Notes: a model not told the origin generated them from the letters alone. Positions 34,169 to 41,124 are shown, counted from the stretch's first letter. The stretch: DNA of 64,000 nucleotides from Promethearchaeota archaeon (GCA_016839555.1 JAEOUA010000012.1:288001-352000), one strand, 5' to 3'. Program-made: numbers and translations.

Positions 34169-35092
34169 TTAGAAAAGACCTTCTAAAATATCAAGATCCT
34201 TTAGTACGTTTTTAATTTTCTTTTTATTATCTTTCAATGGAGGGGTAAGAGGCAACCTCATTTGTTCGCTCATAATGCCTAATTCTTCAGCCGCATATTT
34301 AACAGGACCGGGATTAGTTTCAATAAAGAGGACTTTAAATAAATCATATAATTCCAACTGCATTTTTCTAGCTTTCTCCCAATTTCCGGCGTTCATTGTA
34401 GTTGTAAATTCAACCATCCTTTTGGGAATGATATTAGAAGCAACACTTATAGCCCCCTTGCCTCCCAATGCCATAATATGATATGTCATACTATCATCTC
34501 CGCTTAAAACAATAAAATCTTCAGGAGTGGATTTAATAACTCTTGTTATTTGATCAATATCTCCGCTCGCACATTTAATCCCTATTATATTCTCTTTTTC
34601 ATGTGCTAATACTGAAACCGTTTCTGGCTCAAGATTTCTCCCAGTTCTACTTGGAACATTATATAAAACGATTGGAAGTGAAACAGAATCCGCAACCTTA
34701 GAAAAATGATCAATTAAAGAGTGTTGTACCGGTTTATTATAATAAGGAACAACCAATAGCAATCCATCTGCTCCTGCGTTCTCAGCATACTGGCTCAATG
34801 AAATTGCCTCATCAGTCGAATTACTTCCTGTTCCTGCCAACACAAAGGGATCTTTACCGCTTTTTTTTGCTTCATCAACCGCAATATCAATCGCATGTTT
34901 ATGTTCTTTATGAGAAAGTGTTGCAGATTCTCCTGTTGTGCCCATAGTTAATATATGGCACCCATTATCAATCTGAAATCTAATAAATTCCCTATATTTC
35001 TCCTCATCTAAAGAGAAGTCTTCTTTAAAGGGGGTGATCATTGCAGTTATAACATTTTTCAATTTATCTAATTTCATATTACTTTCTACCAT
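34169..35092 (-). CDS. dapA: 4-hydroxy-tetrahydrodipicolinate synthase
   Basis: GTTGES, AGTGSNST, PYYNKP, YNVPSRTG, GIKCASG, LSGDD, ETNPGPVK. Confidence 0.97.
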   Translation of the reverse strand: MVESNMKLDKLKNVITAMITPFKEDFSLDEEKYREFIRFQIDNGCHILTMGTTGESATLSHKEHKHAIDIAVDEAKKSGKDPFVLAGTGSNSTDEAISLSQYAENAGADGLLLVVPYYNKPVQHSLIDHFSKVADSVSLPIVLYNVPSRTGRNLEPETVSVLAHEKENIIGIKCASGDIDQITRVIKSTPEDFIVLSGDDSMTYHIMALGGKGAISVASNIIPKRMVEFTTTMNAGNWEKARKMQLELYDLFKVLFIETNPGPVKYAAEELGIMSEQMRLPLTPPLKDNKKKIKNVLKDLDILEGLF

Positions 35093-35273
35093 TTTTTCTT
35101 CTTTATAATTATGTTACTATTGCTTATAAGATTTATCGTCATTTTTAAAATTCAGTTATTTTTTTTATAAGATGTTTTAACTGGATTTAATTTTTCAAGC
35201 TTCTTTCCTTCCTTCATTCTATTATAATAAGTTTATTTTTAGACAAATATAATGAAATTTTTAAAAAAGAACA

Positions 35274-35699
35274 TTAAAAATACTTTTCTCCAAAAAAGAG
35301 AGAAATTTCTCTTTTTGCTGACTCTGGCGAATCAGAGGCATGAACCATATTTTCTGTGACAGATTTTACGGGCTCTTCCCTGAAGTCCCCTCTAATAGTC
35401 CCCTTTTTAGCTTCCTTAGGAATAGTTGCTCCCACTAATTCCCTAATATAAGGAATAGAATTTTCACCTTCAATTATAAGAGCAACAGAATTTCCCGATG
35501 TTATGAATTTAATTAAGCCTTCATAAAACTCCTTTCCTTTATGTTCTATATAATGATTTTCGGCTAATTCATGAGTTATTTTTAACATTTTAAGTGCCCT
35601 AATATTGAGATTTTTTTCCTCAAATCTGTTTAAAATCTTTCCAATTAATCCCCTGTGAACGGCATCCGGCTTAATTATAATCAATGATTTTTGAATCAT
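35274..35699 (-). CDS. ndk: Nucleoside diphosphate kinase
   Basis: IIKPDAV, GTIRGDF, NMVHASDS. Confidence 0.97.
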   Translation of the reverse strand: MIQKSLIIIKPDAVHRGLIGKILNRFEEKNLNIRALKMLKITHELAENHYIEHKGKEFYEGLIKFITSGNSVALIIEGENSIPYIRELVGATIPKEAKKGTIRGDFREEPVKSVTENMVHASDSPESAKREISLFFGEKYF

Positions 35700-35814
35700 A
35701 TAGAATTTCTATTTTGTTTTAATTAATTATTTTTTAGGAGAGAAAATTAAAAAAATTAAAAAAGATTTCTGGATAAGCTATTGGAAACAAAAAGAATTCA
35801 TAAAAAAAATTTAC

Positions 35815-37092
35815 TTACTGTTTATTTTCATTTGCCTTTTTTTTGGCAATAAAACCCATTCTACTTTGCAAGCCCCATAAAGGAATAAAACCATAACTAT
35901 ATTTTTGATTGAAGGAACTTTTGGTCTCATAAGTCGCTAAATTTAAGTCATATATCCCATATGGGGATTTTCGGGCTATCACTTCAGCAGATCCCTTAAA
36001 AAGCTTCATTGAAACACTCCCGGCAACTTTTATATTTATCTCATTAATGAAGGCTTCTAAAGCATCCCTCAGAGGATCTACCCATAATCCATCATATACT
36101 AATTCTGTCCATCTCTGATCAATTAACGATTTAAATGAATTTTCATGCTTAGTGCATACATATTTCTCTAAATCTTTATGGGCTTTTATTAATATTAACG
36201 CTGCGGGAATCTCATAAGTTTCTCTAGATTTTAATCCAATCGCACGATCTTCCATATGTTCTATTCTTCCTATTCCATGTTTGCAACCAATATCATGGAT
36301 CCTCTTGATTAATTCTACTCCCTCCATAGGTTGATCATTTATTCCTATAGGTATTCCTTCTTTAAAATTAATAGTAATATATTCTGGGTTGTTGGGTGCT
36401 TCCTCAGGAGGTACAGTCCATTCTTTAGAGTCCTCTGGAGGTTCAATGTCAGGTTGCTCTAAAATATCACATTCTGCACTACGACCGAAAAGATTTTCAT
36501 CTACGCTATACTTTTTATTTTGATTAGATATCGGAATATTATGTTGTTGGGCATATTTAATTTCTTCATCACGTCCCATATTCCACTCGATGAGTGGTTG
36601 AAGAATTTCCATTTCTGGTGCATAAGCTTGAGCTGTAGTATTAATTCGAATTTGATCATTTCCCTTTCCAGTACATCCATGAGCAAGGACTTCAATGCCT
36701 TCCTTTTGTGCAATTTTTACTGCTTCTATTGCAATTAGCGGTCTGCCGATAGCTGTACTTAAAGGATAAATCCCTTGATAAAGTCCATTTGCTTTAATAG
36801 TAGGAAAAACATATTCATTAACAAATTTTTCTTTCAAATCTACAGTAAAGTGTTTAATAGCTCCCAATTGTTTTGCTTTATCCTCAATTTGTTTAAAACG
36901 TGAGGGATCCGCGAATTCTTGCCCTAAATCTGCGGTAAAAGTGTATATTTGGGCATGATATTTTTCTTGGAGCCATTTAAGCATACAGGAAGTGTATAAT
37001 CATATATATGGAATTCATATATATTCTAACCCTCCTGAATACATAAGTAAGATCTTATCATATTTATCCTTTTTAGGTCCTAATTCACTCAC
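35815..37092 (-). CDS. argG: Argininosuccinate synthase, split gene: exon 1 37092-37026, exon 2 36995-35815 (415 aa after removing the 30-nt insert)
   Basis: GTG start gives MSELGPKKDKYDKILLMYSGGL|D-TSCMLKWL. Downstream TADLGQ, HGCTGKGNDQIR, YSVDENLFGRSAE and KSRETYE are intact. The ORF-track ORF (36984) lacks the essential SGGLDTS motif. Confidence 0.93.
36996..37025 (-). other. Putative 30-nt bulge-helix-bulge mRNA intron in argG
   Basis: Pre-mRNA ...GAG-GGUU-AG^A-AUAUAUAUG-AAUUC-CAUAUAUAU-GAUU-AU^A-CAC...; two 3-nt bulges around a 4-bp helix, 9-bp intron stem; excision gives UUA GAC ACU (LDT). Confidence 0.75.
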
Positions 37093-37170
37093 AATTATCA
37101 CTTAATTAAGAAATAAATTCATATATTCTAAAATAATTTCTAAAATATTAATATTGATTAAAAAAAGAAT

Positions 37171-37197
37171 AAATACTTTAATTAAAATAAAGTATTT
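37171..37197. promoter_or_regulatory. Inverted repeat in the divergent argG / histidine kinase promoter region (possible operator)
   Basis: AAATACTTTA-N7-TAAAGTATTT, perfect 10-bp arms but very AT-rich. Confidence 0.35.
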
Positions 37198-37259
37198 TTC
37201 GTTATAGTATTAAATTATTTAAAGTTCTATACTTATTGCCTAGATTGGGTTTTTAGTTT

Positions 37260-39140
37260 ATGAAACAAAACGAGAAAGATTTCGAATTTCCTGAAAAAGC
37301 TTATAAAATAATTTTCAGAAATTTTCCAAATCCTTTATACATTTGGAAAAAAGTGGGCAAAGATCTTATTTTAGTTGCTTTTAATGAAGCTAGTTTTAAA
37401 ATAACCCAAGGGGGAATTGAAAAATATCATGGTATTAAAGCATCAGAATTATATAAGCAAAATCCAACAATATTAGAAGATTTAAATAATTGTTTTAATC
37501 AAAAGACTTCTTTTTATAAAAAATTAAGTTATAAATTCAAATCTACCAATAAAATAAAGACTTTATTAGTATTTTTCAATTTTATTCCACCAGATTTAGT
37601 TTTAATTTATACCCAAGACAAAACAGCTGAAGAAGAAGCTGAGTTAGCACTTAAAAATTCCGAGAGAGAAAAAGCCCTCATACTAGAGAGTATTTCAGAA
37701 GTTATATCTCTTCAAGATTTAAATCATAATGTCATTTGGATGAATAGACCAGCTTCAAAGTTAATAGGATTAAATCAAGATGAATTAAAGGGGAAAAAAT
37801 GCTATGAAATCTGGTATAATAAACAAAATCCATGTGAAGATTGTCCTGTGGAAAAAACTATTCAAACTAAAAAAGTTGAAGAGAGTGAAATTAATACTAT
37901 TGATGGTGAAGTATGGACTATTAGAGTTTTTCCTGTGAAAAATGAACAGGATAAAATTATCGGAATCGTGGAAATTGCTCAAAATATCACAGAAAAGAAA
38001 AAGGCTAAGCAAGCTTTAAAAGAATCAGAGCAAAAATTTAGATTAATTAATGATCAATCGCTTATCGGTATTTGTATACTACAAGACGATATCTATAAAT
38101 ATGTAAATGAACAATTTCTTCAAATAATAGGATATTCACGAGAAGAAATCAAAGATTGGAAGCCTGGAGACTATTTAAAAATAATTCATCCCGATTATCG
38201 AGATTTTATTAAAATTATATCCGAAAAAAGAAAAAGTGGAAAAACTGATTACAAGAAACATTGGGAACTTAAAGGTGTTAGAAAGAATGGAGAAGAATTT
38301 TGGGGTGAAATATATACTAAACCGATTACGTTTAAAGGACACACAGCTGATTTAATTACCACTATAGATATAACAGAACGTAAAAACACAGAATTAAAAT
38401 TAAGAGAATCAGAAAAAAATTATCAAATAGCATACAATCGAGCTGAATTTTATAAGGATATTTTTGCTCATGATATTAATAATATCCTTCAAAATATACG
38501 GTCTGCCAGTGATCTATTGGAGATTTATCAAAAAGACAGAGATAATACCAGGAATGAACAGGAAATGATTGATATTATTAATTCACAAGTTTCAAGGGGC
38601 GCAAATTTAGTTTCAAATATTAGAAAGTTATCTCAACTCGAAAAGACTCAAATCTCTCTGAAGTTAATATCCGTAAAAGATATGTTGTTTAAAGCAGTTT
38701 CTGCTATTAAAGATATATATAGTGTGAAAATAATTGAAATTTACATAGATCAGCCTGAAAGTGAAATTAAGGTTTTTGCTAATGAATTTCTTTTGGATAT
38801 TTTTAAGAATATACTCTATAATTCAATCGAATTTAATGATAATGATATAGTAAAGATTGATATAGTTATTTCTAAAATAAATCACATGGGAAAAACCTTT
38901 ATTCAAATGCAATTTATAGATAATGGAATAGGTATTAATGATGAGAGGAAGGAAAAAATTTTTGAGAGGAGTTTTTCCAATAAAGAAAAGGGAAAAGGTA
39001 TGGGATTAGGTTTATCTCTTGTTAGAAAAATATTGGAAGCGTATCAAGCAACTATTAAAGTGGAGAACAGAATAAAGGATGATTATAGGAAAGGTTCAAA
39101 TTTCATAATACTTTTTCCCGAAAAAATAGAAAAAAGTTAA
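37260..39140 (+). CDS. Cytoplasmic multi-PAS sensor histidine kinase
   Basis: Three PAS/PAC-like repeats (including KCYE...PCEDCP), H-box FAHDINNILQ, N-box, DNGIGI, GMGLGLSLV. Confidence 0.93.
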   Translation: MKQNEKDFEFPEKAYKIIFRNFPNPLYIWKKVGKDLILVAFNEASFKITQGGIEKYHGIKASELYKQNPTILEDLNNCFNQKTSFYKKLSYKFKSTNKIKTLLVFFNFIPPDLVLIYTQDKTAEEEAELALKNSEREKALILESISEVISLQDLNHNVIWMNRPASKLIGLNQDELKGKKCYEIWYNKQNPCEDCPVEKTIQTKKVEESEINTIDGEVWTIRVFPVKNEQDKIIGIVEIAQNITEKKKAKQALKESEQKFRLINDQSLIGICILQDDIYKYVNEQFLQIIGYSREEIKDWKPGDYLKIIHPDYRDFIKIISEKRKSGKTDYKKHWELKGVRKNGEEFWGEIYTKPITFKGHTADLITTIDITERKNTELKLRESEKNYQIAYNRAEFYKDIFAHDINNILQNIRSASDLLEIYQKDRDNTRNEQEMIDIINSQVSRGANLVSNIRKLSQLEKTQISLKLISVKDMLFKAVSAIKDIYSVKIIEIYIDQPESEIKVFANEFLLDIFKNILYNSIEFNDNDIVKIDIVISKINHMGKTFIQMQFIDNGIGINDERKEKIFERSFSNKEKGKGMGLGLSLVRKILEAYQATIKVENRIKDDYRKGSNFIILFPEKIEKS

Positions 39141-41020: not shown

Positions 41021-41124
41021 GGGAGGGTAGTCTAGCTTGGTAAGAACTAGTATCTAAAGTTAGCTCCCAAACTGATTCCTGGTTTGGGACCAGGAGGTCG
41101 CGCGTTCGAATCGCGTCCCTCCCA
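41021..41124 (+). tRNA. tRNA-Pro(UGG) with a 30-nt intron (41043-41072) in the D-loop region; CCA not encoded
   Basis: Acceptor GGGAGGG/CCCTCCC, anticodon arm CCTGG-TT TGG GA-CCAGG, T arm GCGCG-TTCGAAT-CGCGT; removing 41043-41072 gives a 74-nt cloverleaf with GGTATGAT; followed by a T-run. Confidence 0.93.

What the first reader, a model, noticed from the sequence alone, without database searches (positions are those of the whole stretch)
36985..37040. Candidate tRNA-type (BHB) intron inside a protein-coding gene (argG) of an Asgard archaeon
Seen: the minus strand reads TAT TCA GGA GGG TTA G[AATATATATGAATTCCATATATATGATTAT]AC ACT TCC TGT ATG. The bracketed 30 nt (36996-37025) hold two in-frame TGA stops and split the Asp codon of the invariant ATP-binding YSGGLDTS motif; the rest of argG shows no decay. 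The RNA can fold into a 9-bp intron stem (AUAUAUAUG/CAUAUAUAU), 3-nt bulge AGA, 4-bp central helix GGUU/GAUU (three G-U pairs), 3-nt bulge AUA, then an imperfect exon-exon helix (CAGGAG with CUUCCUG). Established: archaeal splicing endonuclease EndA cuts after the second nucleotide of each BHB bulge, and the known archaeal mRNA intron is the crenarchaeal cbf5 one. Applying the cut rule (AG^A, AU^A) removes exactly these 30 nt and restores UUA GAC ACU (L-D-T). Inference: argG expression needs EndA/RtcB mRNA splicing. I do not know of this in Asgard archaea or in an amino-acid biosynthesis gene. The weak central helix could make splicing conditional, and so regulatory.
Basis: partly seen in the sequence, partly recalled or inferred. 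Interest (0 to 1): 0.93.

Follow-up and report, generated by a model that had tools for sequence, protein, structure and literature searches.

The report
tRNA-type mini-intron splitting Asgard argG
The only argininosuccinate synthase gene of this Asgard (Promethearchaeota) archaeon is broken inside its ATP-binding motif by a 30-base insert shaped like a tRNA intron; 11 related assemblies keep an insert at the same spot while the gene stays under selection, so the mRNA very probably has to be cut and re-joined by the tRNA-splicing enzymes, which papers document for one archaeal protein gene (cbf5).

Summary
On the minus strand, argG is interrupted at 36996-37025 by 30 nt with two in-frame TGA codons, splitting the Asp codon of YSGGL-D-TS.

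The intron reading is strongly supported, but only by comparison: no RNA data could be obtained.

- **Same-site inserts:** 11 other independent assemblies carry one. Six are genomes of four other genera in the same family and five are metagenome contigs. Ten inserts are homologous 30-mers and one is a divergent 32-mer that shifts the frame.
- **Splice rule:** the bulge-helix-bulge (BHB) cut rule restores G|AC in all 12. The 11 loci whose contig covers the whole gene give a full 407-410 aa frame.
- **Structure:** the stems co-vary, with 95.5% of cells paired against 22-60% in slid controls. The loop varies freely.
- **Selection:** intron-bearing genes are under purifying selection, with dN/dS 0.07 for the window against its nearest relative.
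- **Genome:** one argG, two EndA paralogues and one RtcB. The insert is single-copy.
- **Other genes:** at least four more genes in this genome carry 28-31-nt inserts in conserved motifs.

Papers document only cbf5 as a spliced coding region. This scan has already reported the same argG intron in other genomes (e1-5519056, e1-5519047).

The parts
37026..37101 (-). argG exon 1. The start is GTG at 37101 or 37092. It ends with the G of the split Asp codon and encodes ...KKDKYDKILLMYSGGL + G.
   Evidence: The stop TAA at 37104-37102 closes the frame upstream. The exon-1 peptide is conserved in all 12 intron-bearing loci, with mostly synonymous differences.
37032..37036 (-). 5' strand of the exon-exon helix h (AGGAG). 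It pairs with 36990-36994.
   Evidence: helix 1: 85.5% of cells paired over 11 sequences. In the window 4 of 5 positions pair, with one A x A mismatch.
37028..37031 (-). 5' strand of the central 4-bp helix H (GGUU; exon nucleotides).
   Evidence: H is paired in 100% of cells across all 12 sequences. In the window the pairs are G.U, G.U, U-A, U.G.
37025..37027 (-). 5' bulge AG^A. The predicted 5' cut lies between 37026 and 37025.
   Evidence: The bulge is AGA in 10 of 12, GGA in L121 and UGA in G024. The cut after its 2nd nucleotide gives ...UUAG.
36996..37025 (-). The 30-nt intron: 1 nt + 9-bp stem + 5-nt loop + 9-bp stem + 4 nt of H' + 2 nt. It holds two in-frame TGA codons.
   Evidence: It is single-copy in the genome. 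Homologous inserts sit at the same site in 11 other assemblies.
37002..37024 (-). Intron hairpin h': AUAUAUAUG (37024-37016), loop AAUUC (37015-37011), CAUAUAUAU (37010-37002).
   Evidence: it is part of the MFE fold. helix 3: 99% of cells paired, and 4 pairs show changes on both sides. The loop columns vary freely.
36998..37001 (-). 3' strand of the central helix H' (GAUU; intron nucleotides).
   Evidence: Relatives have GAUC, AAUC or GGAC here, matching their own exon strand.
36995..36997 (-). 3' bulge AU^A. The predicted 3' cut lies between 36996 and 36995.
   Evidence: Joining ...UUAG to ACACU... gives UUA GAC ACU = L-D-T. The same rule restores GAC in all 12 loci.
36990..36994 (-). 3' strand of the exon-exon helix h (CACUU).
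   Evidence: helix 1.
35815..36995 (-). argG exon 2: AC of the Asp codon, then TSCMLKWLQ... to the stop at 35815-35817.
   Evidence: The 389-aa ORF matches the NCBIfam argG equivalogs NF001770 (1.3e-140, profile positions 20-394 of 401) and TIGR00032, so it lacks only the N-terminal positions that exon 1 supplies. Pfam PF00764 matches at 3.6e-54.

Best explanation
The 30 nt at 36996-37025 are an archaeal bulge-helix-bulge (BHB) intron inside the argG coding sequence.

How it most likely works:
1. The gene is transcribed with the insert.
2. The pre-mRNA folds into an exon-exon helix (h), a 3-nt bulge, a 4-bp helix (H) made of 5'-exon GGUU paired with intron GAUU, a second 3-nt bulge, and a 9-bp intron hairpin (h').
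3. The two-subunit splicing endonuclease EndA cuts after the second nucleotide of each bulge (AG^A and AU^A).
4. RtcB joins the exons to give UUA-GAC-ACU. This restores the Asp of the SGGLDTS ATP-binding loop and a ~410-aa ArgG. The intron is released, probably as a 30-nt circle.

Shown here: the insert, its conservation at one site, structural covariation, purifying selection on intron-bearing genes, and the presence of EndA and RtcB.

Inferred: the cutting and joining themselves.
For: **Same-site inserts.** argG carries an insert at this site in 6 other genomes of 4 other genera of the same family and in 5 metagenome contigs. Ten are homologous 30-mers. One (G024) is a different 32-mer that shifts the frame, so it can only be tolerated if removed.

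**Splice rule.** The BHB cut rule restores G|AC in all 12. The 11 loci whose contig covers the whole gene give uninterrupted 407-410 aa frames after removal; L142 is open for 297 aa up to its contig end.

**Covariation (11 sequences).**
- 95.5% of cells pair, against 22-60% when the partner columns are slid.
- H pairs in 100% of cells and h' in 99%.
- 4 pairs show changes on both sides (11 cells; 0 of 500 shuffles reach this).
- The loop columns vary freely.
- Adding the 32-mer gives 6 pairs with double changes, including 2 in H.
- G045, L121 and G024 have a strict helix h next to the 3' bulge.

**Purifying selection while carrying the intron.**
- Window against L113: dN/dS 0.070 at dS 0.50.
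- Three g5 genomes: 0.06-0.07 at dS 0.13-0.16.
- Intronless pairs give 0.09-0.12.
- Branch lengths are not inflated.

**Genome content.**
- One argG only.
- Two EndA paralogues. One is closest to the Aeropyrum pernix EndA chain 3p1z_B (5e-40). The other is divergent and, by eye, lacks the catalytic His.
- One RtcB.
- A published analysis reports that Asgard archaea have the broad-specificity (alpha-beta)2 EndA with the L1 loop (PMC5829648).

**Other genes in this genome.** The same 1+9+5/6+9+4+2 architecture splits conserved motifs in an HDAC-like gene, an AMP-phosphorylase-like gene and a porB-like gene. A 28-nt insert splits DEAGR^GP of RNase HII.
Against: - There is no RNA or read-level evidence.
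- The strict BHB fold is not the predicted MFE. In the window its predicted occupancy is about 6e-6, the lowest of the family. H has three G.U pairs and helix h has a mismatch next to the bulge, so this is a relaxed motif.
- argH was not found in this 92%-complete assembly; the only Lyase_1 gene is purB. The pathway context in this particular genome is therefore uncertain.
- The covariation rests on 12 related sequences, and the structure was derived from them.
Confidence: 0.85

Rival explanations
1. Recent pseudogene. A small palindromic insertion killed argG, and the gene is decaying or dispensable. Many relatives have no argG at all.
For: - There are two in-frame stops inside an essential motif.
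- argG is found in only 48 of 154 genomes of the order.
- argH was not found in this genome.
Against: - There is no other lesion in any of the 12 intron-bearing genes.
- dN/dS is 0.06-0.07 between intron-bearing genes at unsaturated dS, including the window's own lineage.
- The insert has persisted across five genera with stem-preserving changes.
- Exon 1 is still conserved as protein.
- Intron-bearing G008, G010 and G024 do have argH.
Confidence: 0.04
2. Assembly or sequencing artefact: a hairpin-shaped chimeric insertion that is not present in the real genome.
For: The insert is an AT-rich palindrome in a metagenome-assembled genome, and the raw reads could not be inspected.
Against: - Homologous inserts sit at the identical site in 11 other assemblies from different projects. 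Examples are the Promethearchaeota MAGs AMARA_1S, TEKIR_6S, LW60_4, bin106 and Meg22_1012_Bin_233, plus JGI metagenome contigs.
- One of these, L113, is a 93%-identical relative that differs from the window in the loop and at a single synonymous exon base in H.
Confidence: 0.01
3. The insert is real and tolerated, but is dealt with in some other way: ribosomal bypassing (T4 gene 60 type), stop-codon read-through, or use of the internal ATG to make a truncated ArgG from MLKWLQ.
For: - A stable hairpin with a stop codon is what gene 60 bypassing uses.
- An ATG lies 11 nt after the insert.
Against: - There are no matched take-off and landing codons, and Asp cannot be restored by hopping in most of the loci.
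- The stops differ between loci (TGA, TAA), and G024's insert shifts the frame, so read-through is excluded.
- A product starting at MLKWLQ lacks the SGGLDTS ATP-binding loop, yet exon 1 remains under protein-level constraint.
- The helices that co-vary are exactly those that define BHB bulges at the needed junction.
Confidence: 0.03
4. It is a BHB intron as in the best explanation, and in addition its unusually weak central helix makes splicing inefficient or conditional, so that ArgG output is regulated.
For: The window has the weakest H of the 12 (three G.U pairs) and the lowest predicted BHB occupancy, 6e-6 against 1e-4 to 8e-2 in the others.
Against: - No ligand, sensor or alternative conserved structure was found.
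- The difference from the closest relative L113 is one synonymous A-to-G change that still pairs.
- Nearest-neighbour energies say little about an enzyme-bound motif.
- Four other genes in the genome carry introns of similar design, which suggests a general feature of this genome. It does not point to an arginine-specific switch.
Confidence: 0.07

Closest known systems
BHB intron in the cbf5 (aCBF5 pseudouridine synthase) pre-mRNA of Crenarchaeota (Watanabe 2002; Yokobori 2009, PMC2738675)
   Same: - It is a short intron inside a protein-coding region.
- The cleavage motif is often relaxed.
- The host has the hetero-oligomeric EndA.
- The distribution is patchy, implying gain and loss.
- It was reported in 2020 as the only other BHB intron in an archaeal mRNA (PMC7714728).
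   Different: - It is in a different gene (an amino-acid biosynthesis enzyme) and a different phylum (Promethearchaeota/Asgard).
- The design here is uniform: 30 nt with a 9-bp hairpin.
- This one is among several such introns in the same genome.
- Splicing is demonstrated for cbf5 and only inferred here.
BHB intron in the 5' UTR of HVO_1309 mRNA, Haloferax volcanii (PMC7714728)
   Same: An mRNA is a substrate of the tRNA splicing endonuclease, and removal is needed for normal expression.
   Different: That intron lies in the untranslated leader, so it does not interrupt codons. The host has the homodimeric EndA that needs strict BHB motifs.
[quoted passage not shown]
   Same: - The motif geometry, size range and presumed enzymes (EndA, RtcB) are the same.
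- This genome's tRNA genes are rich in introns.
- A tRNA-Pro-like gene with a ~30-nt D-arm insert lies 4 kb away.
   Different: The exon context is an mRNA with no tRNA body. The exon halves of the motif are constrained by codons (SGG / DTS).
HAC1/XBP1 unconventional mRNA splicing in eukaryotes (IRE1 cut; ligation by Trl1 in yeast and by RtcB in animals). From my own knowledge, not tested here.
   Same: It is spliceosome-independent. An endonuclease cuts at paired stem-loop sites in an mRNA, the exons are joined by tRNA-ligase chemistry, and splicing is needed to obtain the functional reading frame.
   Different: The nuclease is different (IRE1, not EndA/TSEN). It is stress-regulated, and there is no BHB motif.

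Membership tests
Archaeal BHB (EndA-cleaved) intron | [quoted passage not shown] | tested here: met
   - GGUU/GAUU is flanked by AGA and AUA.
- H is paired in 100% of cells in 12 orthologous introns, with 2 doubly changed pairs.
- Caveat: this is not the MFE fold, and its predicted occupancy is low in the window.
Archaeal BHB (EndA-cleaved) intron | Flanking helices h (exon-exon) and h' (intron) | tested here: met
   - h' is 9 bp and 99% paired, with 4 compensatory pairs.
- h pairs at 4 of 5 positions in the window, with an A x A mismatch next to the closing G-C, so the motif is relaxed (HBh'-like).
- h is 4-5 contiguous bp in G045, L121 and G024.
Archaeal BHB (EndA-cleaved) intron | Cuts after the 2nd nucleotide of each bulge yield a functional exon junction | tested here: met
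   The rule restores UUA/UUG/CUU-GAC-ACN (L-D-T) in all 12 loci, including the 32-nt one. The 11 loci with complete coverage give full-length frames.
Archaeal BHB (EndA-cleaved) intron | The host encodes a splicing endonuclease able to cut relaxed motifs, plus an RNA ligase | tested here: met
   - There are two EndA paralogues. The alpha-like one matches 3p1z_B at 5e-40; the second is divergent.
- There is one RtcB, at 2.8e-169.
- The L1 loop was not checked in this genome. It is reported for Asgard EndA in PMC5829648.
Archaeal BHB (EndA-cleaved) intron | Spliced RNA and excised (circular) intron observed | not testable with these tools
Pseudogene | Relaxed selection or accumulating lesions | tested here: not met
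   - dN/dS is 0.058-0.089 between intron-bearing genes.
- The insert is the only lesion.
MITE / small insertion element | Multiple genomic copies, target-site duplication | tested here: not met
   - The insert is single-copy in the window and in the 3.74-Mb genome. Only chance matches of 20 nt or less were found.
- No flanking direct repeat is visible.
Programmed translational bypass (T4 gene 60 type) | Identical take-off and landing codons flanking the gap | tested here: not met
   The gap splits a codon (G|AC), and no conserved matching Leu codon precedes the 3' exon in the 12 loci.

The most novel reading that the evidence does not exclude
The argG intron is one of a genome-wide set of EndA/RtcB-spliced mini-introns in the protein-coding genes of Promethearchaeota. 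In this genome its unusually weak central helix makes splicing rate-limiting or condition-dependent, so tRNA-type splicing acts as a post-transcriptional control on an amino-acid pathway in the closest prokaryotic relatives of eukaryotes.
Probability: 0.08. Interest if true: 0.93.

Novelty: new member of a known kind. Interest (0 to 1): 0.82.

Why it matters
- **Rarity in print.** Papers document mRNA coding-region splicing by the tRNA-splicing enzymes for one archaeal gene, cbf5, in Crenarchaeota. [quoted passage not shown] At least four other genes of the same genome are interrupted in the same way.
- **Biology.** If splicing is confirmed, these organisms routinely need protein-only mRNA splicing to make functional proteins. 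That bears on how split genes and mRNA processing could have arisen before the spliceosome.
- **Annotation.** Such genes are mis-annotated as truncated or as pseudogenes. The ORF finder here starts argG at MLKWLQ, so pathway reconstructions for Asgard genomes are biased.

Tried and rejected
- **First translation.** My first translation started one base out of frame and is void. It is replaced.
- **Genome-wide scans.** A loose BHB-plus-ORF-fusion scan gave thousands of hits with no length peak. It is dominated by adjacent genes and off-frame openings, so it cannot serve as a census. Only a strict scan (9-bp stem, loop of 3-8 nt) gave readable hits.
- **Fold prediction.** MFE folding does not return the strict BHB fold in 10 of 11 sequences. 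One constrained value (L137, P > 1) is an artefact of forcing an impossible pair.
- **Alignment of the 32-mer.** MAFFT misaligned the 32-nt intron's hairpin, so its h' was judged by eye.
- **Taxon range.** Among the genomes sampled, none of the 38 argG genes outside family f1 shows an insert in the N-terminal domain.
- **Literature.** Searches for Asgard mRNA introns found nothing.
- **Explanations considered and rejected.** Bypassing, read-through, a truncated start, a MITE and an artefact; see the rival explanations.

Full report
**1. Observation**

The minus strand of the window reads GTG...AAG GAT AAA TAT GAT AAG ATC TTA CTT ATG TAT TCA GGA GGG TTA G, then 30 nt (AATATATATGAATTCCATATATATGATTAT, 37025-36996), then AC ACT TCC TGT ATG CTT AAA TGG.

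- Exon 1 translates to ...KKDKYDKILLMYSGGL after a TAA stop at 37104-37102.
- The frame from 36993 gives TSCMLKWLQ... and stays open for 392 aa.
- Read straight through, the insert gives EYI*IPYI*LY, with two TGA codons.
- The downstream ORF matches the argG equivalog models from profile position 16-20 onward (NF001770, 1.3e-140). Only the N-terminal ATP-binding loop is missing, and exon 1 supplies it.
- The region folds much better than shuffles (z = -4.3).
- The insert is single-copy in the window and in the genome.

**2. Organism and gene copy number**

- The window lies in a 3.74-Mb, 12-contig, 29.6% GC assembly that is 92% complete.
- Its argG relatives at 74-83% identity are MAGs titled Promethearchaeota or Promethearchaeia, that is Asgard, Loki-type.
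- The genome holds a single argG.

**3. Comparative test**

Searching argG in 154 genomes of the order found 48 with the gene. Seven of these, all in the window's family and spread over five genera, carry an insert at exactly this site. A metagenome scan added five more.

- One added contig, L113, is 93% identical in protein to the window's gene. Within the motif it differs from the window in the loop and at one synonymous exon base.
- Ten of the eleven relatives' inserts are homologous 30-mers.
- G024 (Meg22_1012_Bin_233) has an unrelated, GC-richer 32-mer that shifts the frame.
- Among the genomes sampled, none of the 38 argG genes outside this family has an insert.

Applying the BHB rule (cut after the second nucleotide of each bulge) restores Leu-Asp-Thr in all 12. 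The 11 loci whose contig covers the whole gene give uninterrupted 407-410 aa frames; L142 is open for 297 aa up to its contig end. Because the assemblies come from different projects and samples, a misassembly is excluded.

**4. Structure**

I aligned the eleven 30-nt introns with their exon flanks and scored the structure h(5)-H(4)-bulge-h'(9)-loop-h'-H'-bulge-h.

| Measure | Result |
|---|---|
| Cells forming standard pairs | 95.5% |
| Same, with 3' partners slid by 1-3 columns | 22-60% |
| H cells paired | 100% |
| h' cells paired | 99% |
| Pairs with changes on both sides | 4 (11 cells; 0 of 500 shuffles as high) |

- The five loop columns vary freely.
- With the 32-mer included, six pairs show double changes, two of them in H (GAUU/GAUC against GUCU/GGAC).
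- G045, L121 and G024 also have a strict exon helix next to the 3' bulge (GGGUG/CACCU or GGUG/CACC). This uses the synonymous choices GGU and ACC.

The window's own motif is the weakest. H is G.U, G.U, U-A, U.G, and h has an A x A mismatch. The strict BHB fold is not the MFE in 10 of 11 sequences, and its predicted occupancy in the window is about 6e-6, against 1e-4 to 8e-2 elsewhere. So this is a relaxed (HBh'-like) motif. Published work assigns cleavage of such motifs to the (alpha-beta)2 and epsilon2 types of EndA (PMC5829648; PMC2738675).

**5. Is the gene alive?**

| Comparison | dN/dS | dS |
|---|---|---|
| Window against L113 (both intron-bearing) | 0.070 | 0.50 |
| Three intron-bearing g5 genomes | 0.058-0.074 | 0.13-0.16 |
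| L025 against L124 | 0.058 | 0.12 |
| Intronless pairs | 0.087-0.12 | 0.14-0.47 |

- Terminal branches of intron-bearing genes are not longer than those of their intronless neighbours.
- Exon 1 stays conserved as protein, and most of its differences are synonymous.

The pseudogene reading is rejected.

**6. Evolution**

On the argG tree the intron needs at least 4-5 changes, and each intron-bearing gene nests among intronless genes of its own genus. Six other genomes of the window's genus lack the intron. The shared sequence of the 30-mers suggests one origin with repeated loss, or spread by recombination. I cannot separate these two routes.

**7. Machinery**

- The genome encodes two EndA paralogues of 198 and 208 aa.
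- The first is closest to the Aeropyrum pernix EndA chain 3p1z_B (5e-40). It also matches 2cv8_A and 2zyz_B.
- The second is divergent. By eye it lacks the His that follows the conserved Tyr. This fits a two-subunit enzyme and is an inference.
- There is one RtcB.

**8. Context in the same genome**

My strict scan and family searches recovered other inserts that split conserved motifs.

| Gene | Place | Length | Motif split |
|---|---|---|---|
| HDAC-like | C10:447264-447293 | 30 nt | D.D.HTG^DG |
| AMP-phosphorylase-like | C12:205678-205708 | 31 nt | DKHS^TGGVPGNK |
| porB-like | C6:79408-79438 | 31 nt | |
| RNase HII | C12:~69955-69982 | 28 nt | DEAGR^GP |

The first three share the argG design (1+9+5/6+9+4+2 nt) but not its sequence. 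Earlier notes of this scan list these and others. They also report the same argG intron in other genomes. I used those notes as leads and tested them only as stated here.

**9. Rivals**

- **Bypassing** fails: there are no matched take-off and landing codons, and Asp is not recoverable.
- **Read-through** fails: the stops differ between loci (TGA, TAA), and one insert shifts the frame.
- **A start at MLKWLQ** would drop the ATP-binding loop while exon 1 stays constrained.
- **A MITE** fails: the insert is single-copy with no target duplication.

**10. Caveats**

- argH was not found in this assembly; the only Lyase_1 gene is purB. Intron-bearing G008, G010 and G024 do have argH.
- The covariation comes from few, related sequences.

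**11. Novelty**

The literature I could search names cbf5 as the only coding-region BHB intron and HVO_1309 as a 5'-UTR case (PMC7714728, PMC2738675). It holds nothing on Asgard mRNA introns. This is a new member of a known kind, in a lineage and at a frequency that a specialist would find surprising.

Noticed in passing
window 41021-41124 (+): A tRNA-Pro(UGG)-like gene (GGGAGGG...CCCTCCCA) carries a ~30-nt insert in the D-arm region, 4 kb from argG. The find_trnas tool reports no tRNA in the whole window. ARAGORN with introns allowed mis-calls it tRNA-Phe(aaa).
   Followed up: partly
G000 C10:447264-447293 (-), outside the window: A 30-nt insert with an in-frame TGA splits the D.D.HTG^DG motif of a histone-deacetylase-family gene. 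It has the same 9-bp-stem, 5-nt-loop BHB design as the argG intron, and the Pfam match is split exactly there.
   Followed up: partly
G000 C12:205678-205708 (+) and C6:79408-79438 (+), outside the window: 31-nt inserts with 9-bp stems and 6-nt loops split DKHS^TGGVPGNK of an AMP/thymidine-phosphorylase-like gene and the NTGIQ.SGGTPP region of a porB-like gene.
   Followed up: partly
G000 C12:~69955-69982 (+), outside the window: The only RNase HII gene is interrupted by 28 nt between DEAGR and GPVLGP. The insert shifts the frame.
   Followed up: partly
G000 whole genome: argH was not found. There is no ASL_C2 match, and the only Lyase_1 gene is purB (TIGR00928, 2.7e-149). Relatives with the argG intron (G008, G010, G024) do have argH. 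Either argH lies in the missing 8% of the assembly, or ArgG works in an incomplete pathway here.
   Followed up: partly
argG loci L001-L054: argG itself is patchy: it is found in 48 of 154 genomes of the order, for example in 6 of 54 genomes of genus g11 and 4 of 42 of g2. The intron is patchy within genera: 1 of 7 in g1, 3 of 9 in g5, 1 of 4 in g3.
   Followed up: partly
window 35274-35699 (-), 34169-35092 (-), 37260-39140 (+): By the look of their translations, the neighbours of argG are an Ndk-like ORF, a DapA-like ORF, and a divergently oriented PAS/histidine-kinase-like ORF. No other arginine-pathway gene was recognised by eye among the ORFs listed for 35000-38500.
   Followed up: no
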